From an uncultured Candidatus Saccharibacteria bacterium (GTDB lineage: Bacteria; Patescibacteriota; CAZHWT01): a stretch of 24,366 bases of DNA. The stretch covers positions 57,113 to 81,478 of the forward strand of contig CAZQWH010000003.1 in NCBI GenBank assembly GCA_964597145.1, read 5' to 3'. The position numbers and the translations under genes were made by a program. This document shows, piece after piece, positions 361 to 19,771 of this stretch. The notes beneath the pieces were generated by a model. The model saw nothing but the letters and a program-made list of their open reading frames with translations. It was not told the DNA's origin and made no database searches. Numbering within the stretch: position 1 is the stretch's first letter; each line of letters opens with the position of its first letter.

Positions 361-786
361 ATGATTATCAATTCGACTCTAAATCAATACGCCGGCGCAT
401 TGCTGGTAACCCCTGATGGCAAAATTATTTTGCAACAACGCGATAATAAACCAGGCATTATGAACCCAGGCCAAATCACCACCTTTGGCGGAGCAGTCGA
501 AGATGGAGAAACGCCCGAGCAAGCCATAATCCGCGAGCTAAAAGAAGAGCTGGATTTAGAATATAACCAGCCTAAACTCTACAAAATTCTTCACAAAACT
601 CAAGCCACCCATGGCGAAGATCGAGAAATGCATATTTACCTCGTCCAGAATATTGACCCAACCGCTCTGGTCGTTCATGAGGGTCAGGGGTATATCCAAA
701 TTTCATCCAACGACAACTTGAGCCAATTTTACTTGACAGCATTTACCCGTGAATTGTTAGCAGATTATTTTAGACTGGTTGATTAA
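361..786 (+). CDS. NUDIX hydrolase
   Basis: Nudix box GGAVEDGETPEQAIIRELKEELDL fits GX5EX7REUXEEXGU; 141 aa. Confidence 0.85.
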   Translation: MIINSTLNQYAGALLVTPDGKIILQQRDNKPGIMNPGQITTFGGAVEDGETPEQAIIRELKEELDLEYNQPKLYKILHKTQATHGEDREMHIYLVQNIDPTALVVHEGQGYIQISSNDNLSQFYLTAFTRELLADYFRLVD

Positions 787-807
787 AGACCTATAGCATG
801 GTACAAT
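779..807 (+). promoter_or_regulatory. Sigma70-type promoter TTGATT-N17-TACAAT with conserved spacer motif AGACCTATAGCATGG
   Basis: -35 at 779-784, extended -10 TGgTACAAT at 799-807; first member of the recurring promoter family. Confidence 0.55.
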
Positions 808-856
808 CATTCGGTAGATATTCGAGTGGCCACAATCACAACCAAAGGGATTGACG

Positions 857-1357
857 ATGAATCATGCTCGCGTCCCTCTACCGCCGGACTTCCGCGAGAC
901 CAATCGACCACTTGTATTCCTAGCCGGTCCTATCCAAGGAGCGCCAGATTGGCATCGTGAGGCTACAGAACATATCCACCGGCTTAATGCCGATCAGTGG
1001 GTAGCTAGCCCCAAGCGATTCGAGTGGAACGATAGGCTCGACTATAACACGCAAGTAGATTGGGAAACCCGCCACCTCAACCAAGCGGCGTATGGCGGCG
1101 GAGTAATCTTGTTCTGGCTGGCATTAGAGGCTCAACATTTCTGCGAGCGTCCCTACGCCCAAACGTCTCGGTTTGAGCTGGGCGAGTGGAAGGTCAAGCA
1201 TGAGCGAGATGGCATTCATCTGGTTGTCGGCATAGCCGATGGTTTTACCAATCAGCGCTATATTCAACGCCGACTATCCCAGGACTGTCGCAGTGTACCC
1301 ATTTTCAACACGTTGGAGGAAACTTGCGCTCAGGCAGTAAAAATGATTGCGGCGTAA
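857..1357 (+). CDS. Nucleoside 2-deoxyribosyltransferase / DNPH1-like Rossmann-fold protein
   Basis: VFLAGPI N-terminal motif and SRFELGEW (resembles the DsGTAFEIGYA catalytic-Glu region of NDT family); ATG at 857 with RBS AAAGGGA; the ORF track start at 851 is a TTG. Confidence 0.55.
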   Translation: MNHARVPLPPDFRETNRPLVFLAGPIQGAPDWHREATEHIHRLNADQWVASPKRFEWNDRLDYNTQVDWETRHLNQAAYGGGVILFWLALEAQHFCERPYAQTSRFELGEWKVKHERDGIHLVVGIADGFTNQRYIQRRLSQDCRSVPIFNTLEETCAQAVKMIAA

Positions 1358-1651
1358 CGTCCCTCATACCACTGTGGCAACCGCCGCAGTGGCTTTTATT
1401 TTTAACCAAAATATCAGCCGATAACATGATGCAATTCCAACGTATATTTACCACGTAATTCATCATATCGAATGATGGCCTCTTCAGAACAATCTATGTT
1501 CCGAAGCCGAAAGTTTTACCGACCCCATTGTGTATAAAATGTGGAACTAAAGGCACCAACGGCAGACTTACCTAGCAGTAAAAATCGCCTCACGCTTCCT
1601 AATTAGCACCCAAGCAGTTACAATAGTTGTCTGTGTCATTTTTTGCTGCAT

Positions 1652-2302
1652 ATGAAAACCATCATCATCTCAGACACTCATTTATCTAACCGGGTTTACC
1701 GTAAAAAATATTACTACCTTAAATCGGTGATAGAACAGGCGGATAGGGTAATTATCGCGGGAGATTTTTGGGACGGGTTTTTAACCAATTTTGATAAGTT
1801 TTTACAGAGTAAATGGCAGTTGCTGTTTCCGTTGTTATTAGAGCGGCAGACAATGTATCTGTATGGTAACCACGACCGGGCCGAATGGAGTGATGAGCGA
1901 GTTAGTCTTTTCTCAGTTGAACAGGCCATGAATACCACCATAGAATGCAACGGTCAACAGTATTTTATTGCCCATGGCCATACCATTTTTACTTCTTTTG
2001 AAGACAAATACCCCATTGTAAACCGCAGCATTCCGCTGCGGATTGGCTCCAGCTTAGATATTATTCATAAACTAGTCTGGGGCAAACGCTTCTTAAATAA
2101 TGACAGCGATATTAATACGCCTATGGCCAATTGGGTAGCAAAAAACTTACCTGCAAACCAAATCTTAATCTGCGGCCATAGCCATTACCCCGAGATAAAC
2201 AGAGCAAAGCGATTTATCAATACTGGGTTTAACGGCTTAGGATATGGCAACTACGTCATTATCGACGAATCCGGCCCCCGAATCATCAAAGACCGCTACT
2301 GA
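1652..2302 (+). CDS. Calcineurin-like metallophosphoesterase
   Basis: Motifs ISDTH, AGDFWD, GNHD, AHGH, CGHSH in canonical order. Confidence 0.8.
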   Translation: MKTIIISDTHLSNRVYRKKYYYLKSVIEQADRVIIAGDFWDGFLTNFDKFLQSKWQLLFPLLLERQTMYLYGNHDRAEWSDERVSLFSVEQAMNTTIECNGQQYFIAHGHTIFTSFEDKYPIVNRSIPLRIGSSLDIIHKLVWGKRFLNNDSDINTPMANWVAKNLPANQILICGHSHYPEINRAKRFINTGFNGLGYGNYVIIDESGPRIIKDRY

Positions 2303-2491
2303 GCCGCCATTAGACACGAATGCGACTCAACCTCAACGGTTAGCGAAGTGATTGTAACTAAAGCCGGCTTCACTAGCTAATTGGATCTGAGTTTGCTACA
2401 ATCTGCCCATCTAAAAATGGATCGAGGATAGCGAGTTGCTGTAACCTCACCGTTAAAATCTTCCGCTTGGAGACATACCTAGGAGCAAGAG

Positions 2492-3289: not shown

Positions 3290-3335
3290 ACCAATGGCGA
3301 CCCCAAAATAATCGGGTCGCCATTTACATTTTCAT

Positions 3336-3440
3336 GTCACAGTCATTGCGAGTGTATGCGAAGCAATCTTGCTCAGTTCAAGTAAGCCCCAATGTAATCG
3401 GGGGAGATTACCATGTCATGTTATCTCTCGCAAGGACGAC
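3336..3440. repeat. Structured repeat, copy A (related to 10240-10345)
   Basis: Shares GTCATTGCGAG...GCAATC core and a closing stem CTCGCAAGG with the element at 10240-10345. Confidence 0.4.
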
Positions 3441-3479
3441 AAATCTAACGACCTGCCTCCAGCTTTCTAGTCTCGCCAA

Positions 3480-4382
3480 CTAACTATCAGTGCCCTTATC
3501 CACTTCATTGGCCGTGATCATGGCGTTACGGATTTGCTCAGCCAAGTCGTGCATCCCACCAGGAGAGTGGGGGATAAGGATAGCATTAGATTTACTCGCA
3601 TTCCCAACCTCTTTAATCGTGTCAAAGTATTGGGTCATCATGACTAAATTCATCACATCTTGAGGCGAGGCACCATGTACCGAGCCACTAAAGGCCGAGA
3701 CCGATTCACTTAAGCCCTCTATAATCGCCGTTCGCTGGTCGGCAATTCCCCGGCCTTGCAAAGCCTTGCTTTCAGCTTCGGCCTCGGCAGCCTTAACCAC
3801 TCTAATTTTATCGGCTTCGGCTTGTTCTACCGCCGCCACCCGCAACCGTTGGGCAGCATTAATTTCGTTCATACTTTCCTTAACTTTTGAATCGGGGTCG
3901 ATATCGGTAACTAGAGTTTTAATAATACCGTAGCCAAAGTCGTCCATGACTTGGTCTAACTCGGTTTTAACCGCGCTGGCAATGTCATCTTTCATCTGAA
4001 ATAAATCGTCCAAGATAATGGTTGGTACCCGGGCCCGAACGGTGTCGAAGACAAAGGAGGTTATTTGGGCTTGGGGATTCTGAAGGCGGTAGAAGGCATC
4101 TACAACTTTATTTTCCAGCACATGGTACTGGACACTAACAATGACAAACACGAACACATTGTCTTTAGTTTTGGTTTCAACCCGGACGTCGAGCTGTTGG
4201 ACGCGAAGGCTAAGGCGGCCAGCCACACGGTCGACGAAGGGAATCTTAAAGTTAAGCCCCGCATTAGCCACTTTTGTAAACCGACCAAACCGTTCTACGA
4301 GCGCGGCGGTTTGCTGCTTAACCGTAAATAATCCCAGAAAAATATATAAAATAACGATTGCTAGTCCGACTATATAAATCAC
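3480..4382 (-). CDS. SPFH/band-7 (stomatin/prohibitin-like) membrane protein
   Basis: N-terminal TM, SPFH core, coiled-coil AEAEAESKALQ region; GTG start with RBS AAGGAGG 6 nt upstream. Confidence 0.85.
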   Translation of the reverse strand: MIYIVGLAIVILYIFLGLFTVKQQTAALVERFGRFTKVANAGLNFKIPFVDRVAGRLSLRVQQLDVRVETKTKDNVFVFVIVSVQYHVLENKVVDAFYRLQNPQAQITSFVFDTVRARVPTIILDDLFQMKDDIASAVKTELDQVMDDFGYGIIKTLVTDIDPDSKVKESMNEINAAQRLRVAAVEQAEADKIRVVKAAEAEAESKALQGRGIADQRTAIIEGLSESVSAFSGSVHGASPQDVMNLVMMTQYFDTIKEVGNASKSNAILIPHSPGGMHDLAEQIRNAMITANEVDKGTDS

Positions 4383-4499
4383 GCATGGCCTCCTTGTATA
4401 GATAATTATTGACAGTGTAGCATTTTTAATAAGTCAGAAGTAATACGGAATCGTGGCTTAAGCGTCGGTGGGGAATGTCCGATACAATGCAAAATATAT

Positions 4500-4568: not shown

Positions 4569-4613
4569 CGCCATGTGCTGTACGCTATCCGCTAAACGCG
4601 CTACACTTGTCTA

Positions 4614-5036
4614 ATGTTTCCAATCCGCGATATGACCCGCAATCAGGCAACAGTAACGCTAGCAATTATAGTAGGGGCTATAATTGTTGGCATTGGCTTA
4701 ATTCTCACTCAGCAGACAAATTCTACTTCACCCGGCACTCCTACGCCAACCGTAACTCCAGGGCCAATTACAATCGAAGGGACAATCGTTTGCTTGCCGC
4801 ATAAAAACATCCAAGGCCCACAAACGCTTGAATGCGCTTACGGCTTAAAAGCAGACTCGGGTGAATACTATGGTTTACGCGGCTTAGACCAAGATACATT
4901 AATCGATGGCACGCTGACCGTGCAAACCCGGGTACTAGTTTCGGGCACTGCGGTACCACCAGCAGATAACCAACGCTATGGCATTGTGGGCTCAATTGAC
5001 ATTGTATCTATCGAAGTGTTATCAGCCGCAACCTAA
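4614..5036 (+). CDS. Hypothetical membrane-anchored protein (N-terminal TM, Pro/Thr-rich linker, small beta-rich C-domain)
   Basis: ORF 140 aa, divergent from the SPFH gene; start uncertain (4614 or 4632), no clear SD. Confidence 0.45.
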   Translation: MFPIRDMTRNQATVTLAIIVGAIIVGIGLILTQQTNSTSPGTPTPTVTPGPITIEGTIVCLPHKNIQGPQTLECAYGLKADSGEYYGLRGLDQDTLIDGTLTVQTRVLVSGTAVPPADNQRYGIVGSIDIVSIEVLSAAT

Positions 5037-5154
5037 TCGTTGCCTCATATTCTCCCATCAGCAGAAACAAAGTCTAATCCATTCCTTTACCTTAACCCTA
5101 TAATAATGTATACTTTGGCAGAATTGGTCTGCCAACACACGATAGGAGAAGGAC

Positions 5155-5802
5155 ATGGCCATTGAGCAGTTAGTTCTCACCGACCAACCCGATGGAATTA
5201 GGTGGAGCGTCGCTCTATCTCAGCAGCTGTCGAGTGTCTTGGGCACTCACGGCTTGTCCGACCGAGACGCAGGCCGTATTGCCGGAGTCAGCTATCGGAC
5301 TATTAAACGGATGAGGGAATCCGGCAAACCACACACCGAACGGAATATCTGCCGGGTCTACTTCAAATTGGGATTGGTCGATGTAGCCATTCAGCAAGCA
5401 TTAAATAGCCTTCGTCGGACCAATCCGCTCAAGTACGAGCGATTGCGTCGTGGCGCGACCACAGTCCAATTGGCTAAAGCCTCTGGGGTATCCCTTAGCC
5501 TGTTGTTCGATGGGCAGATGAAGGTGCAGCCAGTCTCGGAGCTAACTTGGGAAAAGCTAGAGCTCGCCTGGGAAAAGTATCCGCCACTTGCCAGCCAAAC
5601 GTCGCTCCATGGCGGCAATATCATTCGATTCACCGCTGTGCGCAACCACCGCAAGCAGGTCAGTCGAATGCAGACAAAGGGGGCACTCAACCGAGCCATC
5701 CAACACCACCATCCAAACGGCACGCTGGATGGAGCCACTCACCGACAGTTGGTGAAAGTGCTAGAAGCAGCCATGGAGGATCTGTTGGATCGGAAAAGAT
5801 AG
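5155..5802 (+). CDS. Putative DNA-binding protein with two helix-turn-helix motifs
   Basis: LSDRDAGRIAGVSYRTIKRM and TTVQLAKASGVSLSLLFDGQ HTH-like segments; RBS AGGAGAAGGA; markedly GC-rich. Confidence 0.55.
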   Translation: MAIEQLVLTDQPDGIRWSVALSQQLSSVLGTHGLSDRDAGRIAGVSYRTIKRMRESGKPHTERNICRVYFKLGLVDVAIQQALNSLRRTNPLKYERLRRGATTVQLAKASGVSLSLLFDGQMKVQPVSELTWEKLELAWEKYPPLASQTSLHGGNIIRFTAVRNHRKQVSRMQTKGALNRAIQHHHPNGTLDGATHRQLVKVLEAAMEDLLDRKR

Positions 5803-7260: not shown

Positions 7261-7394
7261 ATCCGTATTAGTACAAATCGTAGCCAGATTAGCCCAAATG
7301 CGATATAATCCTATCCGTTGGAAGAGGTTTACGGTGTCAGGTTATAACTGTCCGCTACTTATCCCTTATACCTTGGACCTTATCCCTACACCAT

Positions 7395-7413
7395 CGTGGA
7401 TGTAGCTCAGCTG
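7395..7413 (+). repeat. Duplicated 5' fragment of tRNA-His (TGGATGTAGCTCAGCTG)
   Basis: 17-19 nt identical to 7517-7533, lying ~100 bp upstream of the intact gene; no tRNA fold follows. Confidence 0.6.
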
Positions 7414-7514: not shown

Positions 7515-7592
7515 GGTGGATGTAGCTCAGCTGGTTAGAGCGCCTCTCTGTGGAAGAGGAGGTCGTGGGTTCAAGTCCCATCATCCACCCCA
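7515..7592 (+). tRNA. tRNA-His (anticodon GTG) with encoded G-1 and CCA
   Basis: Cloverleaf: G-1:C73, acceptor GTGGATG/CATCCAC, D-stem GCTC/GAGC, anticodon loop CTGTGGA, T-arm GTGGG-TTCAAGT-CCCAT, CCA 7590-7592. Confidence 0.9.
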
Positions 7593-7767
7593 GTAAACTT
7601 CACTTCGTTTCGCTTACTTGAAGTGGTGTGAAGTTTGCTGAAGATAAGCGAAGCTCAAAGAGCGAAGTTTATCCATTAAACTACGCCAGGGCTACGCTTA
7701 ATTGGGATTAAACTTATAGTTAATCTTAGACATCATCATATTCGCTGCCTCGCTACAATGAGGATTC

Positions 7768-8079
7768 ATGTACTACACCTATATTCTACGCAGTCAGAGC
7801 CAGCCAGGCGCTATTTACATCGGCCATACTACTGATTTGAAATCACGCCTTAAGCAACATAACGCCACTTCAAGTGAAAACTACAGCAGGAGGCATGCCG
7901 CTTTGACTGTCGAGACCTATATAGTTTTCAGCAACCATAATGATGCCAAAGCATTTGAATTCTACCTAAAATCAAATTCAGGCAAAGCGTTTATGCGCAA
8001 AGGGCTTATATCAAATCGGTTCAAAGAAGCCTTGGCAAAGTTTAACAATGGTCGCACTAAATTAAGCGAATCGCCGTAA
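7768..8079 (+). CDS. Small GIY-YIG nuclease-domain protein (UPF0213/YhbQ-like)
   Basis: YTYILRS...GAIYIGHTTDLKSRLKQHN matches GIY-x10-YIG...R...H..N; 103 aa. Confidence 0.75.
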   Translation: MYYTYILRSQSQPGAIYIGHTTDLKSRLKQHNATSSENYSRRHAALTVETYIVFSNHNDAKAFEFYLKSNSGKAFMRKGLISNRFKEALAKFNNGRTKLSESP

Positions 8080-8155
8080 AGTTTAATCATCCACCATTCT
8101 GATGTTTGATGGAATTATCGTAATTAACGCTCATACTTAACGTGATCGACAATTA

Positions 8156-8184
8156 TTGATTTTAGACCTATAGCATGATATAAT
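8156..8184 (+). promoter_or_regulatory. Promoter TTGATT-N17-TATAAT with spacer TTAGACCTATAGCATGA
   Basis: Family member 2; extended -10 TGaTATAAT. Confidence 0.55.
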
Positions 8185-8228
8185 AATTATTGGAGTTTGT
8201 TAGTATCCAACTAGAAAGAGAGAGCAGC

Positions 8229-8534
8229 ATGCGCTACAAGAGGCAAGTTGGAATAGCTGCAGTAATCGCACTAATTTTCGCCAGCCTATATGTCGGCGGA
8301 GTAAGGATCGAGTGGGGTGAGAGCAACGAAGCTTTCGCAGATGATTCCATCCTGATCGACGAGAATTCAACCATAACTGCCTTGAATGGCCATGAGCCTA
8401 TCGATCCAGAATACGGAAACTGGAAGAAGGAGTATCAGCCTCGGGCATACAGCCTTCCAATTGGAGATCAGCTGTGCGTCATAGTCCTTCATCCCGAAAA
8501 TGCCGCTATCAGCTGCCTGCCGCCATCGCAGTAG
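8229..8534 (+). CDS. Hypothetical small protein with N-terminal TM anchor
   Basis: ATG 8229 with RBS GAAAGAGAGAG; the 8190 ATG of the ORF track abuts the -10 box and is probably not transcribed. Confidence 0.45.
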   Translation: MRYKRQVGIAAVIALIFASLYVGGVRIEWGESNEAFADDSILIDENSTITALNGHEPIDPEYGNWKKEYQPRAYSLPIGDQLCVIVLHPENAAISCLPPSQ

Positions 8535-8607
8535 GCATGTTCTAGGCGTGCAATTATATCTTGCAAATGAGGCTCGTTTCGATTAAGTCTCACCTAATAC
8601 ATTCTGT

Positions 8608-8633
8608 AAGGCGCCCAACTAGGCGCCTTTTTC
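8608..8633 (+). terminator. Rho-independent terminator
   Basis: AAGGCGCC-CAACTA-GGCGCCTT then TTTTC. Confidence 0.7.
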
Positions 8634-8697
8634 ATGCTCACAATTGAATTTATAGCAACAATACGCTCGTGTAAGAACTGATTTCGAAATATATCCC

Positions 8698-8715
8698 ATC
8701 ACCCACCCCATGAAG
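8698..8715 (+). repeat. Degenerate copy of tRNA-His 3' end (ATCACCCACCCCATGAAG)
   Basis: 14/18 match to ATCATCCACCCCAGTAAA of the tRNA. Confidence 0.4.
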
Positions 8716-9043
8716 ATTTCACCATTTATCACACCTGATGGGATGTTTTGACTACAAGGGCCAACTCGGGCAATCTCATAGATATGTAAACCTATATCTG
8801 TTTTATTCCTATACCTTTACTACAATAGTCATCGATTGATCGATTACAGACCTAGTGTTTAGAAGATGTGGAATGACGCTGATTCACCACAGTGAAGTAG
8901 TAGATGTCCTACGATCATTTGCTGTAGCTGGAGATCCAGCTCTACTAGACCTCAGTAATCTTGCGGTTCAGATCGCAATCTGCTGGTGAATTCAACCGAG
9001 AATAACTCAGCTCCACTAAGCACTTTGAGCCACAACACTCTAT

Positions 9044-9070
9044 GGCACCGGGCAAGCACCGGTGCCATTT
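9044..9070 (+). terminator. Hairpin terminator-like structure with no upstream annotated gene
   Basis: GGCACCGG-GCAAGCA-CCGGTGCC then ATTTCTATT; abuts the palindromic element. Confidence 0.4.
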
Positions 9071-9126
9071 CTATTGAGGTCTATTGAGGTTTAACCCCAA
9101 CCCCCTTGTTGGGGTTAAACCTCAAT
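9071..9126. repeat. Long palindromic element, copy 1 (arms CTATTGAGGTCTATTGAGGTTTAACCCCAAC, core CCCCTT)
   Basis: 31-nt left arm with tandem TCTATTGAGG, 19-nt matching right arm; asymmetric 6-bp centre. Confidence 0.6.
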
Positions 9127-9305
9127 TAATACTCAGGCATCTGTCTGAGCTTTATATTTACTGGATTGATGAGCGAGAACCCACCGATTCAGAGCCTTAG
9201 GCAGCCATTCTGTGCCAACGAGCAACAGAATAGGCGAACTAGGCATTTTCACGTAAGTGAAGAACCCCATTATCCACCCTTCCTTAAAATTACAGAGATA
9301 AATTG

Positions 9306-9337
9306 GCATAAATGGCTATTTAAATAGCCATTTATGC
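9306..9337. promoter_or_regulatory. 32-bp perfect palindrome GCATAAATGGCTATTT|AAATAGCCATTTATGC
   Basis: Exact dyad symmetry, 15 bp upstream of an att-like copy; candidate protein-binding site. Confidence 0.4.
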
Positions 9338-9352
9338 TACAGTGCAAAAACA

Positions 9353-9374
9353 ATCATCCACCCAGGTAAATTTT
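9353..9374 (+). repeat. att-like copy of tRNA-His 3' end (ATCATCCACCCAGGTAAATTTT)
   Basis: Matches the tRNA 3' end and the copies at 10000 and 10854, including the TAAATTTTC extension. Confidence 0.6.
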
Positions 9375-9420
9375 CTCCTCTATAATAACTAAACCGACAT
9401 GAGATCATTGTGATCTTACC

Positions 9421-9449
9421 TTGACATAAGACCTATAGTTATATATACT
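9421..9449 (+). promoter_or_regulatory. Promoter TTGACA-N17-TATACT with spacer TAAGACCTATAGTTATA
   Basis: Family member 3. Confidence 0.55.
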
Positions 9450-9507
9450 AATTCTGAACATCTCTTGTTTGGCCTTTTGACGTTTTAACTATTCAAGGAG
9501 TAACCAC

Positions 9508-9906
9508 ATGAGTGTCGTTACAAGTCTGCGAGAAAAGATCGCCTCGGAACAGCATGCTATCTGGTCTCACTGGATGAAGTACATGTTCACTCAGGGGATC
9601 TACAACAAAGACGGCAGTTGGATAATGCCAGCTGAAAAGGTTGAGCGGTGGAGTCGGCAAATGAATACCGACTACGTCGACTTGACCGACAAAGAGCGCG
9701 AAAGTGATCGCGATCAGGCAGATAAAGTGCTTGCAATTGCTGGTGCTAAAGTTATTCCCAAACTTACCGATGAAGAGCTTCAAACTTGGTTCAGCAACTT
9801 GCCTCCAGTGCCGACTGAAGAGGAAGAGGGTCTTGACCGCATTATCAACGATGCATTCCACAAGGTCTTCGGCCGTCCACTTAATCCAAGTGCACGACCG
9901 GAGTAG
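9508..9906 (+). CDS. Hypothetical protein (132 aa), cassette cargo
   Basis: RBS AAGGAG 7 nt upstream, own promoter and terminator; no recognisable domain. Confidence 0.55.
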   Translation: MSVVTSLREKIASEQHAIWSHWMKYMFTQGIYNKDGSWIMPAEKVERWSRQMNTDYVDLTDKERESDRDQADKVLAIAGAKVIPKLTDEELQTWFSNLPPVPTEEEEGLDRIINDAFHKVFGRPLNPSARPE

Positions 9907-9939
9907 ACTCGTAATAAATGCTGGCCTGGGTCAACCCGT

Positions 9940-9966
9940 TGGCGCCCCCTTGGGCGCCATTTTTAT
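9940..9966 (+). terminator. Rho-independent terminator
   Basis: TGGCGCCC-CCTT-GGGCGCCA then TTTTTAT. Confidence 0.7.
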
Positions 9967-9999
9967 ATGCACATTGTTAATAAAGTCCAAACATTGCTC

Positions 10000-10024
10000 A
10001 ACCATCCACCCCAGTAAATTTTCC
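10000..10024 (+). repeat. att-like copy of tRNA-His 3' end; 16-mer CATCCACCCCAGTAAA identical to 7582-7597
   Basis: Exact 16-nt identity with the tRNA-His 3' end and flank. Confidence 0.75.
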
Positions 10025-10239
10025 CACCTTTCCACAGATAATCAAAACCCCATTTCATCATTCACCTTATGGCATATCTGAAAACCCCTTTTAGACAACA
10101 GCCTTGTGGCAAATCGTCAACTAGAACCGCCGTTAGCTGCAAGTTCGTATTTCGGTAGCACTATTGCTTAAAAGTAACTAGTATTAACGCGAATTACGAA
10201 GCTCAATTTATTCCTTTTATAGCAGCAATGAAAACATTT

Positions 10240-10345
10240 GAGTTATCGTCATTGCGAGCGCAGCGCGGCAATCTAGGTTGGATTACACCCCAGGCAGGAT
10301 TGCTTCGTTTCACTCGCAATGACGTAAAATGCAAAATTATCAGAG
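10240..10345. repeat. Structured repeat, copy B (nested inverted repeats CGTCATTGCGAG...CTCGCAATGACG; GCAATC...GATTGC), flanked by GCGAATTACGAA / TTCGTAATTCGC
   Basis: 12-bp outer stem plus inner stem; related to 3336-3440; candidate small structured RNA or MITE-like element. Confidence 0.4.
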
Positions 10346-10556
10346 ATGTAGTTTCGTAATTCGCGTTATTACCTGAATTGTCGTCGTTTTTCTTCTTACA
10401 CCACTATAGTATTCCATATGAGTTTTCAGAGGGCTATCGTTTCACCAGCTATATGGTTCTGAGTCGTCCGCCCAAGGGTAGCTATTTTGTTATAAGGTTG
10501 ATTGTTAACATAGAAAATGTTATAAGAGTTTAGCTGGATACCTTTCTAGCATCCGA

Positions 10557-10580
10557 CGCGTAAGCATATATGCTTACGCG
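10557..10580. promoter_or_regulatory. 24-bp perfect palindrome CGCGTAAGCATATATGCTTACGCG just upstream of the RBS of the small basic protein gene
   Basis: Exact dyad; ends 7 nt before the SD AAGAGGAG. Confidence 0.45.
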
Positions 10581-10600
10581 CAGCAAGAGGAGACGCCGTC

Positions 10601-10777
10601 ATGACTAAGGGTGGCAAGGCGAAACGGAAGGGCTATACGACGATCGGTGAGGTCTTGTTTGGGCCTACGCCAAAGCCCAGCAGCGGACCGCGAAAGAGTA
10701 AGCGGTTCGACAAGTCGAAAAACCATCACGACTCCCGTAAGGGCGGAGGTGGCAACAATACTGGCCGCCGCCGCTAA
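10601..10777 (+). CDS. Small highly basic protein (58 aa, K/R/G-rich), not in the ORF track (<60 aa)
   Basis: ATG 10601 with strong SD AAGAGGAG 8 nt upstream, stop TAA 10775-10777, followed by a terminator; GC-rich; translation MTKGGKAKRKGYTTIGEVLFGPTPKPSSGPRKSKRFDKSKNHHDSRKGGGGNNTGRRR. Confidence 0.5.
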   Translation: MTKGGKAKRKGYTTIGEVLFGPTPKPSSGPRKSKRFDKSKNHHDSRKGGGGNNTGRRR

Positions 10778-10790
10778 CCCACTGCAGCTG

Positions 10791-10830
10791 GCCGTGTTCT
10801 CGAGGAATTTCTCGAGAACACGGCTTTTAC
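10791..10830 (+). terminator. Rho-independent terminator
   Basis: GCCGTGTTCTCGAG-GAATTT-CTCGAGAACACGGC then TTTTAC. Confidence 0.75.
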
Positions 10831-10853
10831 TAAATTCTAAAATTGTCCAACCA

Positions 10854-10875
10854 ATCACCCTCAGTAAAATTTTCC
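10854..10875 (+). repeat. att-like copy of tRNA-His 3' end (ATCACCCTCAGTAAAATTTTCC)
   Basis: Matches the 9353 and 10000 copies; related CCAACCAATCACC(C)TCA recurs at 11616-11630. Confidence 0.55.
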
Positions 10876-10965
10876 TTTTTATCTCATATAGACCTACCGT
10901 CATCTCATTTCTCTTACTGGGATGTTTGAACCTTAACTCGCACGTCCTATCATGGGCTATGATTC

Positions 10966-10995
10966 TTGACACATAGACCCATAGTGTGATATAAG
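10966..10995 (+). promoter_or_regulatory. Promoter TTGACA-N17-ATATAA with spacer CATAGACCCATAGTGTG
   Basis: Family member 4. Confidence 0.5.
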
Positions 10996-11033
10996 TTTCC
11001 TGTGGATTTTGGTCTAGACTGAGAGGAAAGGCG

Positions 11034-11540
11034 ATGCGAATTCCAACCGTTTTCTTTCTATTGATTGTCATGATCGGAGGAGGAGCTTCCGCTTCGGCAC
11101 AAACATCAACTGAAACTCCACTCAATGAATATCCATTGACCTCGGATGGGGCATACAATGCCACCATCCGAATGGTCGACCACGATCACCTATACCAACC
11201 TATGGAGTGTGGAGTATTTTACTTCCTAGCTCCAGATACCGATATAGTCGATTTTCTTGAGGGTCGACCCGAGACCGAAGTAGGCGCGCCTACAGCGTAT
11301 ACCGACCGAGATGGAATTGCCCGGGCTCGCCTTGAGCCTAATGCTAGCGGTGTATCGCGGGACTTCATCGTCCTGTACGGGCCTCTCGAAGATTGCCCAT
11401 CAGGACTCGCCTGGACGACGCTTGATGGGTTCATCAGAGTTGGTTCAGACGGAATCGCTGCATATATTCCATATGATCAGGGATCCAGTAATTTGCCACC
11501 TTTCAACTGGCAACTCGGCGTCCTAACCGTCTACGGTTAA
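11034..11540 (+). CDS. Hypothetical secreted protein with signal peptide
   Basis: MRIPTVFFLLIVMIGGGASASAQTS signal-like N-terminus; RBS GAGAGGAAAGG; GC-rich. Confidence 0.6.
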   Translation: MRIPTVFFLLIVMIGGGASASAQTSTETPLNEYPLTSDGAYNATIRMVDHDHLYQPMECGVFYFLAPDTDIVDFLEGRPETEVGAPTAYTDRDGIARARLEPNASGVSRDFIVLYGPLEDCPSGLAWTTLDGFIRVGSDGIAAYIPYDQGSSNLPPFNWQLGVLTVYG

Positions 11541-11689
11541 CGACACACGCCCGGCTCTTTGTACATCGCTAAGGGCCGGGCGGCTTTCATTTCAAAAGCA
11601 AATTCTCATAGCACCCAACCAATCACCTCATTAAGCTTCGCGTAATTAGATTGAACTACATACATCCCCCAACCATCCTTTCCTAAATT

Positions 11690-11755
11690 CTATTGAGGTC
11701 TATTGAGGTTTAACCCCAACAAGGGGGTTGGGGTTAAACCTCAATAGACCTCAAT
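11690..11755. repeat. Long palindromic element, copy 2 (same arms as 9071-9126, core AAGGGG = reverse complement of copy-1 core)
   Basis: Near-perfect 29-31 nt arms; centre inverted relative to copy 1. Confidence 0.6.
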
Positions 11756-11768: not shown

Positions 11769-11798
11769 TTGACGATTTAGCCTATAGCATGATATATT
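11769..11798 (+). promoter_or_regulatory. Promoter TTGACG-N17-TATATT with spacer ATTTAGCCTATAGCATGA
   Basis: Family member 5. Confidence 0.55.
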
Positions 11799-11843
11799 GC
11801 TTCAGTCGATTTTGCGACAGCTGTTTTCACCAAGGAGAGTTTG

Positions 11844-13232
11844 ATGGAAGTCGGTTCGATAATTGGATTGGGCTTCGGCCTAATCGCAACCGTGGCACTC
11901 CTCGCACTTATCATTTTTGTGATTCACCTACGCAAGGTCGTGCCCACCAACATGGTGCACATCGTGCAGTCCGGCACGGCTACGACCAGCTACGGTAAAG
12001 ACATGGCAGCTGGAAACGCGTACTACGCCTGGCCAGCCTCCCTGCCGCGGCTTGGCGTCTCGGTAATCGCGTTGCCAGTTAGCAACTTCGAAGTGCCTCT
12101 TAAAGACTATGATGCGTACGACAAAGATCGTGTGCCATTCATGGTCGACATAACCGCCTTCGTCCATATCGCTAACACAGAGGTGGCTGCCCAACGGGTT
12201 GCCTCATTTGAAGAACTTGAGGCCCAACTTAGGACTATTGTTCAAGGAGCCGTCCGTAAGGTTCTAGCCTCAGATAACATCGACAACATCATGACGCAGC
12301 GCTCAACCTTTGGCGAAGCTTTTACCCAAGAGGTGAGCGATGGGCTGATGCAGTGGGGAGTTGAGACGGTAAAAAGCATGGAGTTGATGGATATCCGGGA
12401 TGCCAAGGAATCACGCGTCATCGCCGATATTATGGCGAAGAAGATCTCGGATATCAATCGAGAGAGCCGAATCGCCGTCGCCACTAACAACCAAGAAGCC
12501 GAAATGGCTGAACTGCGATCGAAACAAGAGGTCGACCTACGCCGCGAGGAAGTTGAGCAGGCTGTTGGTAAGCGCAAAGCCGAGCGCGAACAGGCTGTTG
12601 GTATGGCCAACGAGGTTTCCCGACAAGAAGTCCTGGAGCTGCAAAAAGAGACGACGCAGCGAAACATGGAAGTTAGGAGCATCGAGGAGACCCGTGAGGC
12701 TCAAATTGCCAGCGCTCGCGCCGTCATTCAGGCCGACCAGGAGCGCCAGACCCAGGAGTTGATCGCGCAAGGTCAACTCAAGGCTAAGGAATTTGAAGCC
12801 CAAGGCATCAAGGCCGAAGGCAACGCGCGAGCCGAAGCGGCAACAGCCATGCAGATGGCGCCAGTTGAAGCTCAGGTGGCTCTGGCTAAGGAAATTGGTA
12901 GCAACGAAGGTTACCAGCAGTTCTTGGCCATGAAGCAGGCTTTGGAGACACACCTGGCGGTCGGCACCGAACAGGCTCGTGCATTGCAAGGCGCTGACGT
13001 TAAGGTTATTGCCAACAGCAATAATGCCTCCGGCGGTGTCAGCAATGTCATGGATCTGTTTAGCGGCCAAGGTGGCACGCAACTGGCAGCCATGGTCGAA
13101 GCCTTCGCCCAGTCGGGCCTAGGCAGCAGCTTCTTCGCCTCAATGCTAAATAGCAGCCAGGCGTCAAGCAATTCGGACGTCATGCGCCAAAATGGTTCCG
13201 GAGATACGTCGGAGGTAATTATGCGGCACTAA
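11844..13232 (+). CDS. Flotillin-like SPFH-domain protein (FloT/YqiK family)
   Basis: N-terminal TM, SPFH domain, long Glu/Ala/Gln-rich coiled-coil flotillin region; ATG 11844 with RBS AAGGAGAG (the track start 11841 is TTG); strongly GC-rich. Confidence 0.85.
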   Translation: MEVGSIIGLGFGLIATVALLALIIFVIHLRKVVPTNMVHIVQSGTATTSYGKDMAAGNAYYAWPASLPRLGVSVIALPVSNFEVPLKDYDAYDKDRVPFMVDITAFVHIANTEVAAQRVASFEELEAQLRTIVQGAVRKVLASDNIDNIMTQRSTFGEAFTQEVSDGLMQWGVETVKSMELMDIRDAKESRVIADIMAKKISDINRESRIAVATNNQEAEMAELRSKQEVDLRREEVEQAVGKRKAEREQAVGMANEVSRQEVLELQKETTQRNMEVRSIEETREAQIASARAVIQADQERQTQELIAQGQLKAKEFEAQGIKAEGNARAEAATAMQMAPVEAQVALAKEIGSNEGYQQFLAMKQALETHLAVGTEQARALQGADVKVIANSNNASGGVSNVMDLFSGQGGTQLAAMVEAFAQSGLGSSFFASMLNSSQASSNSDVMRQNGSGDTSEVIMRH

Positions 13233-13506: not shown

Positions 13507-13566
13507 GGATTTATTTCAAAGAAATAAATCCTATAGTTTGACGTAGTATATAAAATAGTGTATAAC
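13507..13566 (+). promoter_or_regulatory. Promoter region with perfect 11-bp inverted repeat GGATTTATTTC-AAA-GAAATAAATCC overlapping a CCTATAG motif and TATA-rich -10
   Basis: IR at 13507-13531; CCTATAG at 13530-13536; -10 candidates TATATA/TATAAC. Confidence 0.4.
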
Positions 13567-13603: not shown

Positions 13604-14239
13604 ATGGAGATTTTGCTGTTGGTCTTTTGCTTACTTATAGGCGGAGGAGGAGTGTACCTGTGGCAAGAACACAGGCGAGACAGGATAGAGCAACAATTTG
13701 TGCTCGTTCCCCGAAGCTCACTGGGTGAGCGCCTCGAAATTTCGACTGGCAGTGGAGAGCTGATGTGCTCTCACTGCAACGGACTTCTCCAGGAAACGGT
13801 TGAAGCAGCATTGCTGATTAGCACCAAACATCCCAACCAGGCAGAGATCAAGGTCTATCGGCATCACGCTTCCAAGCATCCATATGCCGAACGAGTCGGT
13901 TTAGGAGCAGTTTATGTTTACCAAGACTTCATTTTCCCCTTTGTGGTTCCATCAACCACGCGACAGGAAATTGAGGACTGGGTATTTGCTTCTAAAATTA
14001 TTTCGAGTCATGTGGGGTGGATAGACAACCATACTTTAAGAGTCTGGGATCCACTCGCCGACTTCAGGACTGGTCAGGCGGCTGACTATCCCGAAGAGAA
14101 CCGGCTTCTCGATCAAGAGCGTATGGCGGCAGGTCTGCGGCGCATCCTCAGGATTGCTGACCTAAAACTCTATGATCCGAAAGCAGAGGACATTCCTCTC
14201 TCGGCACCGATTTCAACCGTTGAGCTACCTATAGCATAA
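13604..14239 (+). CDS. Hypothetical protein with N-terminal TM helix
   Basis: RBS AGAGGAGTGAGG; 211 aa, no recognised domain. Confidence 0.55.
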   Translation: MEILLLVFCLLIGGGGVYLWQEHRRDRIEQQFVLVPRSSLGERLEISTGSGELMCSHCNGLLQETVEAALLISTKHPNQAEIKVYRHHASKHPYAERVGLGAVYVYQDFIFPFVVPSTTRQEIEDWVFASKIISSHVGWIDNHTLRVWDPLADFRTGQAADYPEENRLLDQERMAAGLRRILRIADLKLYDPKAEDIPLSAPISTVELPIA

Positions 14240-14261
14240 TAGGACAGCTCAACAACCACCC

Positions 14262-14395: not shown

Positions 14396-14424
14396 CCGCT
14401 TGTTCTATACTGCTATGGTATACT
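14396..14424 (+). promoter_or_regulatory. Promoter with CTATACTGCTATGGTATACT (extended -10 TGgTATACT)
   Basis: Related to the family motif (CTATGG variant). Confidence 0.45.
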
Positions 14425-15885: not shown

Positions 15886-16067
15886 GCCTATCCTTCCAAC
15901 CAGCATGAGGTGGCCGAATAAAACATTCGGTCACCTCGATTCACTTCTAATATCATTTTAAACTTAGAAATAGATTGAGTTTTGACTTTAAGCCTTAGAA
16001 TGAGGAAATGCTATGGTAGCAACGATTACCATAGGGATGGACTATTCACAGGGTATGAGTCAATACA

Positions 16068-16096
16068 TTGACTGATACCCTATAGTATGATATATT
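16068..16096 (+). promoter_or_regulatory. Promoter TTGACT-N17-TATATT with spacer GATACCCTATAGTATGA
   Basis: Family member 8. Confidence 0.55.
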
Positions 16097-16218
16097 TTCA
16101 GCGCTCAATAACGACAGTCAGTGCGGTAATCCATACAGTACAGCCATGACTGTTGCGATTGAGTAGGATCGTGACTGGTTGGAAGTGATTCCAACTATTG
16201 CATTCAGGGAGAGTTGCA

Positions 16219-16605
16219 ATGCAGGATGTGCCGATGCTGCAAACTGGCGAAGTCGTAGCATTTGATAACGAAGGGGGGTACGGCTTTGTTAGAGATACTC
16301 TGACTCATGTCGACTTGTTTTTTCACGTCAACGAGGTGGGCACACTAACCAGCAAACAGCCCGATAGGTTCACTCTGACCTCGGACGGCTATTATGAGCA
16401 CCGCCCAATGGTAGGCGATCGCCTGGTTTACGTTGCGGATCTTAACTACAAAAAAGGCCCACGAGCAACCGTGTGGATCGATGAACGTAGTTACCGGCAA
16501 CAGCTCAGGTGGATAAAACATCAATGGGCAGCCGAGGCTGCTGCTGTGGAGTCATATAACATATTCTCCATAAGTAGCCTTCACCAAGTCGGAGCCACAA
16601 TGTAG
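16219..16605 (+). CDS. Cold-shock-domain (CSD) protein with C-terminal extension
   Basis: GEVVAFDNEGGYGFVRD...DLFFHVNEV matches the CspA-like RNP motifs; ATG 16219 with RBS GGGAGAG. Confidence 0.6.
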   Translation: MQDVPMLQTGEVVAFDNEGGYGFVRDTLTHVDLFFHVNEVGTLTSKQPDRFTLTSDGYYEHRPMVGDRLVYVADLNYKKGPRATVWIDERSYRQQLRWIKHQWAAEAAAVESYNIFSISSLHQVGATM

Positions 16606-16758
16606 TCACATCCGACATTGTTTTACAAAAAGAGACATTCATCGGGCACTAGCACAACTAGTGCCCTATTCTCATTTCAAGCAGTCAGCATCTCTTAACG
16701 GCCAACCAGCCAGATGCTATACTTTGAATAATCTAAACAGACAAATTGCCACCGCACC

Positions 16759-18987: not shown

Positions 18988-19020
18988 CCTTACGATAGTG
19001 CAGTCTGCTGAGAGGTTGTT

Positions 19021-19147
19021 CTGACTATAGGCCTATTTTATGTTATACTAATTTATAGAGGAAATTTTAGTCTAAGGTAAGAATTCTGACGAAATCCGCC
19101 GTCACCACAAAACCCCTTGGTATTTCACCAAGGGGTTTTGTTTTTTA
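19021..19147 (+). ncRNA. Candidate small RNA: promoter (CTGACT-N17-TATACT) followed about 55 nt later by a strong intrinsic terminator, with no ORF between
   Basis: Terminator AAAACCCCTTGG-TATTTCA-CCAAGGGGTTTT then GTTTTTT at 19107-19147; no ATG in the about 90-nt transcribed stretch. Confidence 0.3.
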
Positions 19148-19269
19148 AAAGACTTTAACATATCAATCTAAGCATTGGCCAAAAGTTTTGGTGAATGAAA
19201 AATAAGGAGATAGCTCAACTCTCATTGGTTTTTGCAGTAAAAAGGGAGCGATTATCGACCACCAATGGC

Positions 19270-19531
19270 TTAGGGAATAAGATAATGAGTGGCATCTATA
19301 CTCCATTTTTGAGTGGTGGCATCCAAAAATAAAGTTAGCTGTAATCCGCTATCAGCTACAACCTCATAAATATTAACCAAGTTTTTATCGTAGTCTAGTT
19401 GTTGACGAAAACTGGCTTCGGTTACCCGCATCTGCTTATTATTCCAGCGCACAATATGCGGCAAGTAGCGTTTTTTAGCTGGTGAGTAAATTGTCGCCAC
19501 CGAGATACTTGTATCGATACAGTCAGTCATG
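19270..19531 (-). CDS. Hypothetical protein (86 aa)
   Basis: ATG at 19531 with RBS GGGAGA 4 nt upstream on the minus strand (track start 19542 is TTG). Confidence 0.5.
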
Positions 19532-19742
19532 CAGTCTCCCAACTACCCATAATAAACCCGAATCTCAATCTAATTATGAGCGTAAAAGAGTAGAGCGTCA
19601 AGTAGGCAACTTTAGGCCCTGTATGAAAGTAATTACGAAAGATATATTTTCTTTTAATGTTAAATAAAGGATCGTAGCCAAAGAAAACACTAATGCATAA
19701 GTAGTGCTAGCCATGAGCTCGCGCGAGTTAGCAGGCAACCTA

Positions 19743-19771
19743 TTGACTATTAGCCTATAGTATTATATAAT
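19743..19771 (+). promoter_or_regulatory. Promoter TTGACT-N17-TATAAT with spacer ATTAGCCTATAGTATTA
   Basis: Family member 10. Confidence 0.55.

What the first reader, a model, noticed from the sequence alone, without database searches (positions are those of the whole stretch)
779..19771. Family of promoters with a conserved spacer motif CCTATAG(C)ATGA between -35 and -10
Eight promoters share not only TTGACx and TATAAT-like hexamers at 17-bp spacing but also a near-identical spacer (consensus xxAGACCTATAGCATGA). The starts are 779, 8156, 9421, 10966, 11769, 16068 and 19743, plus the CTATGG variant at 14396. The spacer includes the palindromic hexamer CTATAG and an extended -10 TG. Further partial versions are the CTATAG copy overlapping the -35 at 19021, the copy at 13530 and a CTATGGTAGC...CCATAG hairpin at 16001. 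Spacer sequence is normally unconstrained, so this points to one of the following:
- a dedicated regulator or sigma-factor contact
- a promoter module that travels with the accessory genes it drives (NDT-like, cassette genes, flotillin, acidic protein, CSD protein, small membrane protein)
Basis: seen in the sequence. Interest (0 to 1): 0.62.

Follow-up and report, generated by a model that had tools for sequence, protein, structure and literature searches.

The report
Conserved CCTATAG box in island promoters
A short DNA word, CCTATAG, sits at a fixed place inside many predicted promoters of a gene island in an uncultivated candidate-phyla-radiation (CPR) bacterium and its close relatives, so it is probably a regulatory signal for accessory genes and not the organism's general promoter.

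Summary
Six sigma-70-type promoters in the window carry CCTATAG exactly 5 nt upstream of the -10 (0.08 expected by chance), and one more carries CCCATAG. All are on the + strand.

The window comes from a CPR/Patescibacteria genome (Microgenomates, Daviesbacteria-like), not a phage. The box-bearing promoters drive small accessory genes in an island next to tRNA genes.

A relative (about 73-80% protein identity) has nine boxes in 8.6 kb of its own, mostly different, island. It has none in the adjoining 20.5 kb of core-like genes. The two island genes shared by both genomes keep their box while the neighbouring spacer bases diverged.

The box occupies two fixed positions:
- Class I: 5 nt upstream of the -10.
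- Class II: 0-2 nt upstream of the -35.

Core-like promoters and the tRNA-His promoter lack the box. Scans of genome, metagenome and viral collections show no general use of it.

Best reading: a lineage-specific cis-regulatory box bound by an unidentified factor, probably a repressor of near-consensus accessory-gene promoters. The main rival is an RNA-polymerase-intrinsic optimised spacer. It is not a copy-paste promoter module inside the window, although one promoter module does sit in front of different genes in two relatives. Interest is moderate.

The parts
779..807 (+). Class I box promoter (TTGATT-N17-TACAAT, CCTATAG at 790-796), upstream of the NDT-like gene 851-1357
   Evidence: Pfam
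5086..5114 (+). Variant box promoter (TTTACC-N17-TATACT, CCTATAA at 5097-5103), upstream of a 215-aa ORF with two sub-threshold HTH signals (5155-5802)
8156..8184 (+). Class I box promoter (CCTATAG 8167-8173), drives a small membrane-protein cassette that ends in a terminator
9421..9449 (+). Class I box promoter (CCTATAG 9432-9438; no TG), drives the 132-aa ORF 9508-9906
10966..10995 (+). Class I variant (CCCATAG 10978-10984, 18-nt spacer, -10 TATAAG), drives the secreted 168-aa ORF 11034-11540
11769..11798 (+). Class I box promoter (CCTATAG 11781-11787) of the flotillin-like gene 11841-13232; the orthologous promoter in the relative keeps CCCATAG
13530..13566 (+). Class II box promoter: CCTATAG 13530-13536, then t, TTGACG 13538-13543, 17-nt spacer, TATAAC 13561-13566; drives the 211-aa ORF 13604-14239; CCTATAGTTTGAC is identical in the relative
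14217..14246 (+). Box copy (ACCTATAGCATAATA) with no intact -10, at the 3' end of the 211-aa ORF inside an 8-bp inverted repeat; probably a decayed promoter copy
14396..14424 (+). Weak relative (GCTATGG-TATACT, no good -35), upstream of the acidic 109-aa ORF
16068..16096 (+). Class I box promoter (CCTATAG 16079-16085) of the cold-shock-domain-like ORF; its -35 lies in a 30-bp palindrome (16051-16080); the 105-nt module 15990-16096 recurs in L099 in front of a Peptidase_M50 gene
19021..19147 (+). Degenerate box promoter (CTGACT-N17-TATACT, GGCCTATTT) followed by a roughly 90-nt structured transcript and a strong terminator; the whole unit is absent from L099
19743..19771 (+). Class I box promoter (CCTATAG 19754-19760), drives the 94-aa membrane ORF 19808-20092
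7516..7592 (+). tRNA-His gene that anchors the downstream cassette array; its own promoter (7281-7309) has no box
8079..11640 (+). Array of direct repeats of the tRNA-His 3' end plus about 12 nt downstream (8079-8095, 8697-8715, 9352-9373, 10000-10021, 10845-10870, 11615-11640). They delimit mini-cassettes of the form promoter, one gene, terminator

Best explanation
The sites are ordinary sigma-70-type promoters (TTGAC, 17-18 nt, TG-n-TATAAT) of a Microgenomates-type CPR bacterium. They carry an extra, lineage-specific cis-element, the box (W W R N)CCYATAG(Y N T).

The box occupies one of two fixed positions on the same face of the helix:
- Class I: immediately upstream of the extended -10, about -24 to -18.
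- Class II: immediately upstream of the -35, about -44 to -38.

I infer that a trans-acting DNA-binding factor encoded elsewhere in the genome recognises the box and co-regulates a set of accessory genes. These genes are mostly small, secreted, membrane or nucleotide-handling proteins, concentrated in variable islands next to tRNA genes. The promoters are already near consensus and would fire without help, so the factor is more likely a repressor or silencer that clamps the -35/spacer region than an activator.

Shown:
- The box exists and is non-random.
- It is confined to island promoters in two genomes.
- It is conserved in orthologous promoters.
- It has two positional classes.

Inferred:
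- A protein binds it.
- The direction of regulation.
For: 1. Non-random and strand-specific. 6 class I sites against 0.08 expected. CCTATAG occurs 8 times on the + strand and once on the - strand.
2. Only the promoter is similar; the flanks of the copies are unrelated. Similarity is therefore maintained by function, not by recent duplication.
3. Phylogenetic footprint. Flotillin promoters: TTGACgatttagCCTATAGcatgaTATATT against TTGACaacataaCCCATAGtgtgcTATATT. 211-aa gene promoters: CCTATAGTTTGAC is identical while the spacer diverged.
4. Restricted to the island. [quoted passage not shown] It has 0 on that strand in the next 20.5 kb. Core-like promoters in the window lack the box.
5. The islands of the two genomes share only 2 genes, yet both use the box.
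6. Two positional classes about 20 bp apart share the same flanking preferences, W W R before and Y N T after. They do so in different promoter contexts, as expected for a protein-binding site. One Saccharibacteria promoter carries both (L032).
7. A class II box is kept at an orthologous promoter in more distant relatives, L152 and L058.
8. It is not a general feature elsewhere. There is one hit per genome or contig in the genome and metagenome scans. CCTATAG shows no excess in 304 kb of those loci. Viral contigs show no register preference.
Against: - No cognate regulator was found. The only DNA-binding candidate in the window (ORF 5155-5802) has sub-threshold HTH signals and is absent from the 29 kb sampled in the relative.
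- The box is short and asymmetric, and always co-oriented with transcription.
- In class I its distance to the -10 is invariant at 5 nt in 12 of 13 sites. That would also be expected of an element read by RNA polymerase itself.
- The class I layout (AT-tract, CC, TATA, then TG) mirrors the four-region organisation of bacterial spacers in general (PMC12641261).
- The rest of the window's own genome could not be retrieved. 'Not in core promoters' therefore rests on about 5 promoters here plus 20.5 kb of a relative.
- All promoters are predictions. No transcription start data exist.
Confidence: 0.45

Rival explanations
1. RNA-polymerase-intrinsic element. The block CCTATAG-YATG-N-TATAAT is an optimised spacer plus extended -10 read by the lineage's own sigma-A/core enzyme (for example the region near sigma 3.0 and the beta-prime zipper). 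It makes accessory cassettes strongly and autonomously expressed, and no separate regulator is involved.
For: - The distance to the -10 is fixed at 5 nt while the distance to the -35 varies from 3 to 7 nt.
- The box is contiguous with the TRTG-type extended -10.
- The layout (AT-tract, GC, AT-tract, TG) matches the general four-region organisation of spacers, and spacer sequence can change promoter strength greatly (PMC12641261).
- Orientation is always the same.
- Near-identical promoters occur singly in many CPR and Firmicutes genomes.
Against: - It does not explain class II sites, where the same box with the same flanks lies upstream of the -35.
- Good promoters of core-like genes in the same DNA and in the relative lack it.
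- Viral contigs show no register preference (19 in register, 9 and 33 when shifted).
- Other CPR loci show no excess.
- Exact 7-mer identity is far more specific than a compositional preference.
Confidence: 0.27
2. Common descent only. The promoters are diverged copies of one ancestral mobile promoter or cassette promoter (a 'putative mobile promoter'). CCTATAG is what is left of that ancestry and has no function of its own.
For: - The 105-nt module at window 15990-16096 recurs in L099 in front of a non-homologous gene.
- The cassettes sit in tandem arrays bounded by tRNA 3'-end repeats.
- A decayed copy lies at 14228.
Against: - Inside the window no pair of copies reaches the published criterion of at least 50 nt at 80% identity or more (PMC3488235). 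Similarity is confined to about 29 bp and, within that, to -35, box, TG and -10, while the other spacer positions are randomised.
- Orthologous promoters at about 73% protein identity keep the box but not the adjacent bases.
- The box occurs in a second register (class II). Descent from a single promoter does not explain that.
Confidence: 0.12
3. The box is read by something other than the bacterial transcription apparatus. Two candidates: a T7-like single-subunit RNA polymerase promoter core (CTATAG at -5 to +1), or a CTATAG-specific DNA methyltransferase or restriction system giving epigenetic control.
For: - CTATAG is identical to the -5..+1 core of T7/SP6 promoters (own knowledge).
- Class II sites share a longer AT-rich upstream stretch; for example ATATACTAACCTATAG is found in two unrelated genomes.
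- CTATAG is a palindrome.
Against: - No conserved -17..-6 specificity region in class I sites.
- No phage-type polymerase, methyltransferase or restriction gene in the window.
- The window has no phage matches.
- CTATAG is not clearly avoided in coding DNA.
- The fixed register to the -10/-35 fits sigma-70 promoters.
Confidence: 0.04

Closest known systems
Transcription-factor operators/regulon boxes placed in or next to core promoter elements (for example operators in the spacer of strong phage or plasmid promoters, or monomeric MarA/SoxS-type boxes used in two positional classes)
   Same: A short conserved word at fixed positions relative to -35/-10. It is found in a subset of promoters, is conserved in orthologous promoters, and occurs in two positional classes on the same helix face.
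   Different: No factor is known. The box is only about 7-13 bp, asymmetric and always co-oriented. It comes from an uncultivated CPR lineage for which no regulon has been described (literature searches found nothing).
Extended -10 / '-16 region' (TRTG) promoters of Gram-positive bacteria, and the general four-region organisation of spacers (PMC12641261)
   Same: The AT/GC/AT/TG order of the spacer matches the general pattern.
   Different: The exact heptamer CCTATAG at -24..-18 is not part of any described element. It also occurs outside the spacer (class II).
Putative mobile promoters (Matus-Garcia, Nijveen and van Passel 2012; PMC3488235)
   Same: Similar promoters sit in front of non-homologous genes. 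One 105-nt module is shared between window and L099 with different downstream genes.
   Different: Within the window the similarity is about 29 bp with unrelated flanks. That is below the family's criterion of 50 nt at 80% identity.
Phage early-promoter families with conserved positions beyond the hexamers (for example T4 or T5 early promoters; own knowledge)
   Same: Many near-consensus promoters, each followed by one small gene and a terminator, with extra conserved spacer positions.
   Different: The DNA is chromosomal CPR DNA syntenic with relatives. It has no phage matches.
tRNA-targeted integrative islands with tandem partial-tRNA repeats (tycheposon-like arrays; own knowledge)
   Same: A tRNA gene is followed by direct repeats of its 3' end that separate small cargo units.
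   Different: No integrase or other mobility gene lies in the window. The units are only 0.5-1.6 kb. The relative's island has the boxes but no such repeats.

Membership tests
Sigma-70-type promoter with extended -10 | -35 hexamer close to TTGACA and -10 close to TATAAT, 16-18 nt apart | tested here: met
   9-11 of 12 hexamer matches at 779, 8156, 9421, 11769, 16068, 19743 and 19021. 10966 has TTGACA, an 18-nt spacer and TATAAG as -10.
Sigma-70-type promoter with extended -10 | TG one base upstream of the -10 (TRTG in Gram-positive-type promoters) | tested here: met
   Present at 779, 8156, 10966, 11769 and 16068. Absent at 9421 and 19743.
Sigma-70-type promoter with extended -10 | Correct orientation and distance to a downstream gene; an experimentally mapped transcription start | tested here: inconclusive
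   All sites are 54-140 nt upstream of a co-oriented ORF. No transcription start data are available.
Organism-wide general promoter consensus | The motif is present at most promoters, including core and housekeeping genes | tested here: not met
   Absent from the promoters of tRNA-His, the PIG-L operon, SnoaL, the metallo-beta-lactamase gene and the ABC transporter in the window. There are 0 boxes in 20.5 kb of core-like genes of the relative against 9 in 8.6 kb of island. Limited by lack of access to the rest of the genome.
Transcription-factor regulon box | Conservation of the site in orthologous promoters while neighbouring bases diverge | tested here: met
   Flotillin and 211-aa gene promoters, window against relative. 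A class II site downstream of the DUF2298 gene in L152 and L058.
Transcription-factor regulon box | A cognate DNA-binding protein that binds the site | not testable with these tools
   Only a weak HTH candidate (5155-5802). No binding data.
Putative mobile promoters (PMC3488235) | [quoted passage not shown] | tested here: not met
   The longest repeat families among the promoters are 33-41 nt at 61-85% identity. The flanks are unrelated.
Putative mobile promoters (PMC3488235) | The same, between genomes | tested here: met
   Window 15990-16096 against L099 about 1990-2086. Homology ends at the -10, and the downstream genes are a CSD-like gene and a Peptidase_M50 gene. One case only.
T7-like single-subunit RNA polymerase promoter | A 17-23 nt conserved promoter with a specificity region at -12..-8, and a phage-type polymerase gene | tested here: not met
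   Only CTATAG is shared. The upstream positions are variable in class I. No such polymerase was found among the window proteins.
Integron gene cassettes | attC recombination sites at cassette ends and an IntI integrase with attI/Pc | tested here: not met
   The cassette borders are copies of the tRNA-His 3' end, not attC-like sites. No integrase in the window.
tRNA-targeted integrative island (tycheposon-like) | A tRNA gene at the border and direct repeats of its 3' part flanking cargo | tested here: met
   tRNA-His 7516-7592 plus at least 3 strong copies (15-17 of 19 nt) and 3 weaker copies downstream. A second tRNA 3' end at 1-24 has copies at 177-202 and 340-365.
tRNA-targeted integrative island (tycheposon-like) | An integrase or other mobility gene | tested here: not met
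   None found in the 24 kb. Only a GIY-YIG endonuclease-like ORF at 7768-8079.
Phage genome / prophage | Similarity to phage DNA or proteins, or phage structural genes | tested here: not met
   No megablast or tblastn match for the whole window or for the 742-aa protein. There are only weak flotillin DNA matches to jumbo phages. The right end is syntenic with CPR chromosomes.

The most novel reading that the evidence does not exclude
The CCTATAG box is the operator of a dedicated regulator, a silencer or master switch for the horizontally acquired, tRNA-linked accessory gene pool. It is conserved across a family-level clade of Microgenomates and may be used in other CPR classes too; a Saccharibacteria locus has three consecutive box promoters. 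On this reading the box promoters also act as the joints at which cassettes are exchanged, since homology blocks begin or end at the promoter in all three inter-genome comparisons. That would be the first regulon defined in these reduced, uncultivated bacteria, and a new way of coupling gene acquisition to regulation.
Probability: 0.2. Interest if true: 0.65.

Novelty: new member of a known kind. Interest (0 to 1): 0.45.

Why it matters
Almost nothing is known about transcription control in CPR/Patescibacteria. They have tiny genomes, few recognisable regulators, and very few cultured or genetically tractable representatives. A robust, conserved cis-element specific to accessory genes gives three things:
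- A concrete handle for finding a regulator, for example by DNA-affinity capture or by phylogenetic profiling of box abundance against transcription-factor families.
- A marker for recognising recently acquired cassettes in metagenome-assembled genomes.
- A set of compact, near-consensus promoters, with or without the box, that could be tested as genetic parts in the few tractable Saccharibacteria.

If the box turns out to be read by RNA polymerase itself, it would document a lineage-specific extension of the core promoter.

Tried and rejected
1. Phage origin. No match for the window or its largest protein in 50,697 phage records. Only weak flotillin DNA matches. PADLOC shows no defence system.
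2. General promoter consensus of the lineage or of CPR.
   - The genome scan gave 25 hits, one per genome (two in one MAG).
   - The metagenome scan gave 40 single hits.
   - There is no second copy in the flanks, except in L044, L048 and L032.
   - About 20 of the 25 genome hits are CPR MAGs, but CCTATAG is not over-represented in those loci (11 observed, 11.8 expected).
3. General coupling of CCTATAG to the extended -10. Viral contigs give 19 loci in register, 9 at a +1 shift and 33 at a +2 shift.
4. Getting more of the same genome. The 81-kb NCBI contig that holds the window was never returned. Logan contigs stop inside the window. The ABC ATPase at the right edge is not on record with either start codon.
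5. Restriction avoidance of CTATAG. No clear depletion in coding DNA, although the ORF mask used was crude.
6. A palindromic operator. Only CTATAG itself is symmetric; the flanks are not. The 30-bp palindrome over the -35 is specific to P16068.
7. A second -10. TATAGT could serve as one, but half the boxes read TATAGC.
8. Rfam: nothing except the tRNA.
9. Literature searches for the sequence or for CPR promoter motifs gave nothing relevant.
10. Homologues of the 211-aa gene, for a wider footprint. Only two proteins exist in 5.8 billion.
Full report
**1.

- Six promoters have TTGAY, 5-7 nt, CCTATAG, 5 nt, then a TATAAT-like hexamer. They start at 779, 8156, 9421, 11769, 16068 and 19743.
- 10966 has CCCATAG.
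- Weaker relatives lie at 5086 (CCTATAA), 19021 and 14396.

The statistics are clear.
- TTGAY-N6-CCTATAG-N5-TANNNT occurs 5 times against 0.02 expected.
- CCYATAG-N5-TANNNT occurs 6 times against 0.08 expected.
- CCTATAG occurs 8 times on the + strand and once on the - strand, against 1.3 expected.

The unusual part is the heptamer with its flanks.

**2. What the DNA is**

It is not phage DNA. The PIG-L deacetylase at 20478-21200 has its closest named relatives in Candidatus Daviesbacteria. An identical copy sits on an 81-kb NCBI contig. Other window proteins are otherwise found only on short Logan contigs from runs SRR11843816-37. The window is therefore chromosomal DNA of a Microgenomates-type CPR bacterium.

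The gene content is as follows:
- two NUDIX genes
- an NDT-like gene
- a metallophosphoesterase and an HD phosphohydrolase
- two SPFH/flotillin genes
- a LiaF-like gene and a GIY-YIG ORF
- many small ORFs with no family
- PIG-L, a SnoaL-like gene, a frameshifted metallo-beta-lactamase gene and an ABC transporter at the right end

The right end is syntenic with relatives.

The left and middle parts are islands attached to tRNA genes.
- The window opens in the 3' end of a tRNA whose last 17-26 nt recur at 177 and 340.
- tRNA-His (7516-7592) is followed by at least six direct copies of its 3' end plus about 12 nt of downstream sequence.
- These copies cut the DNA into units of promoter, one gene and a terminator.

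**3. The box is specific to the island, not the general promoter**

In the window, about nine promoters carry the box or a close variant. About eleven other plausible promoters do not. Those without it include the promoters of tRNA-His, the PIG-L operon, the SnoaL-like gene, the metallo-beta-lactamase gene and the ABC transporter.

The best test came from a co-occurring relative, GCA_964536215.1 (flotillin 73%, PIG-L 80% identical). I joined L104, L103 and L057 into a 29.1-kb composite.
- CCYATAG occurs 9 times on the coding strand in the first 8.6 kb. [quoted passage not shown]
- It does not occur at all on that strand in the remaining 20.5 kb, which holds AAA_18, Clp_N, YibE_F, ABC/MacB, PIG-L, MsrA/B, QueA and DUF2298 genes.
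- The two islands share only two genes.

**4. The box is under selection**

Copies within the window share nothing outside the roughly 29-bp promoter. The two orthologous promoter pairs give a footprint.
- Flotillin: TTGAC, CC(T/C)ATAG, TG and TATATT are kept. Most of the 7 nt between the -35 and the box, and the 5 nt after the box, have changed.
- 211-aa gene: CCTATAGTTTGAC and TATAAC are kept, and the 17-nt spacer has diverged.

**5. Two positional classes**

The box also lies 0-2 nt upstream of the -35. I call this class II. It is seen at window 13530, at relative 2877, 6890 and 8534, at L152 5740 and 18653, and at L058 19810. L152 18653 and L058 19810 are orthologous promoters in genomes whose PIG-L is only 68-71% identical to the window's.

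Both classes share the flanks W W R N before the box and Y N T after it. The two positions are about 20 bp apart, which is the same helix face, on either side of the -35. One Saccharibacteria promoter carries both boxes: CTATAG-t-TTGACA-acaacc-CTATAG-tatgg-TATAAT (L032).

**6. Breadth**

I scanned 185,579 species genomes and the JGI metagenomes with TTGAY-N6-7-CCTATAGYATGRTAYAWT. This gave 25 and 40 hits, essentially one per genome.
- Most genome hits are CPR MAGs.
- CCTATAG is not enriched in the flanking 304 kb.
- There is no enrichment in register with -10-like hexamers.

There are three exceptions.
- L044, a Saccharibacteria MAG, has three consecutive box promoters.
- L048 has class I and class II sites beside tRNA genes and a GIY-YIG ORF.
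- L032 has the double-box promoter described above.

L155 (PIG-L 65% identical, 38.5% GC) shows no box in a promoter context. Viral contigs show no register preference.

The box is therefore a recurrent device of one family-level clade, with hints of use elsewhere in CPR. It is not a universal promoter feature.

**7. Promoters and cassette exchange**

L099 has PIG-L 87% identical to the window's. It carries TTGAAT-taaacCCTATAGtatga-TATACT in front of a Peptidase_M50 gene. About 105 nt upstream plus the promoter are homologous to window 15990-16096, which drives a cold-shock-domain-like gene. Homology stops right after the -10.

In the window-relative comparisons, homology starts at the -35 or at the box. 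Box promoters therefore sit at the edges of homology blocks in all three comparisons.

Inside the window, however, the published criterion for mobile promoters (at least 50 nt at 80% identity; PMC3488235) is not met.

**8. Mechanism**

The promoters are near consensus and should be strong on their own. The same asymmetric box, with the same flanks, is used on both sides of the -35. It is confined to accessory genes.

I therefore favour a trans-acting factor, most likely a repressor or silencer (confidence 0.45). No regulator could be named. ORF 5155-5802, which is itself behind a variant box, has only sub-threshold HTH signals.

The main rival (0.27) is a polymerase-intrinsic optimised spacer.
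- For it: the invariant 5-nt distance to the -10, and the AT/GC/AT/TG layout that spacers show in general.
- Against it: the class II sites, and the absence of the box from other good promoters.

Pure common descent (0.12) does not explain the footprint or class II. Phage-type polymerase or methylation readings (0.04) have no support.

**9. Limits**

All promoters are predictions. The rest of the window's genome could not be retrieved. The contrast between core and island rests on few promoters here and on one relative.

**10. Verdict**

This is a real, conserved, lineage-specific promoter box of a known general kind (a regulon or operator-like element) in a poorly understood group of bacteria. 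Interest is moderate.

Noticed in passing
window 7516-11640: tRNA-His is followed by at least six direct copies of its 3' end plus about 12 nt of downstream sequence (8079, 8697, 9352, 10000, 10845, 11615). They divide the DNA into 0.5-0.85-kb units, most of them one promoter, one small gene and one terminator. This looks like tandem accretion at a tRNA attachment site, but no integrase is in the window.
   Followed up: partly
window 1-365: The window opens in the 3' end of another tRNA (…GGGCGCACCA). Its last 17-26 nt recur at 177-202 and 340-365, separating two roughly 150-nt ORF-less segments.
   Followed up: no
window 9069-9126 and 11688-11745: A 58-nt hairpin repeat (TCTATTGAGGTCTATTGAGGTTTAACCCCAAC…GTTGGGGTTAAACCTCAAT). 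The central 8 nt are reverse-complemented between the two copies (CCCCCTTG against CAAGGGGG). Rfam gives only a spurious sub-threshold microRNA match.
   Followed up: partly
window 16051-16080; L099 about 2050-2076: The -35 of P16068 lies in a 30-bp palindrome, GGGTATgAGTCAATacATTGACTgATACCC. L099 has a different sequence at the same place that is also a palindrome (GGGTTTAATTCtttGAATTAAACCC), so the symmetry is kept by compensatory changes. It may be a separate operator or a hairpin.
   Followed up: partly
window 19021-19147: A degenerate box promoter is followed by a roughly 90-nt strongly structured transcript (z = -5.2) and a 15-bp-stem terminator, with no ORF. The whole roughly 280-nt unit is missing from the close relative L099. 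It is a candidate small RNA gene or an empty cassette.
   Followed up: partly
window 22207-22945: The metallo-beta-lactamase-fold gene is split into two overlapping ORFs, whereas L099 has one intact 265-aa gene. This is a frameshift pseudogene or an assembly error.
   Followed up: no
window 7393-7413: A copy of the first 21 nt of tRNA-His (95% identical) lies 120 nt upstream of the real gene and then diverges. It is a partial tRNA duplication or pseudo-tRNA.
   Followed up: no
window 7768-8079; L048 about 3445-3735: A GIY-YIG endonuclease-like ORF sits directly after tRNA-His. A 37%-identical ORF lies between tRNA genes in an unrelated CPR locus that also has box promoters.
   Followed up: partly
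window 3330-3375 and 10245-10325: Copies of a GC-rich palindromic repeat (CGTCATTGCGAG…GCAATC / GATTGC…CTCGCAATGACG), forming a long hairpin at 10245-10325.
   Followed up: no
window 11806-11822; relative composite about 5268-5284: The 5' untranslated region of the flotillin gene (GTCGATTTTGCGACAGC) is identical in the two genomes although the surrounding DNA diverged. It may be a conserved leader hairpin.
   Followed up: no
window 4601-4616 and 20232-20249: Two genes appear leaderless. Their ATG lies 6-7 nt after a -10-like hexamer (TACACT…ATG at 4614; TGCTACAGT…ATG at 20247).
   Followed up: no
L035, L038, L040, L045 (also L083, L090, L093): In several CPR MAGs a near-identical consensus promoter with CCTATAG drives homologous secreted proteins that share the stretch RY-N-FVN-VFKDNILL. 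This is an orthologous promoter-gene pair conserved across genomes.
   Followed up: no
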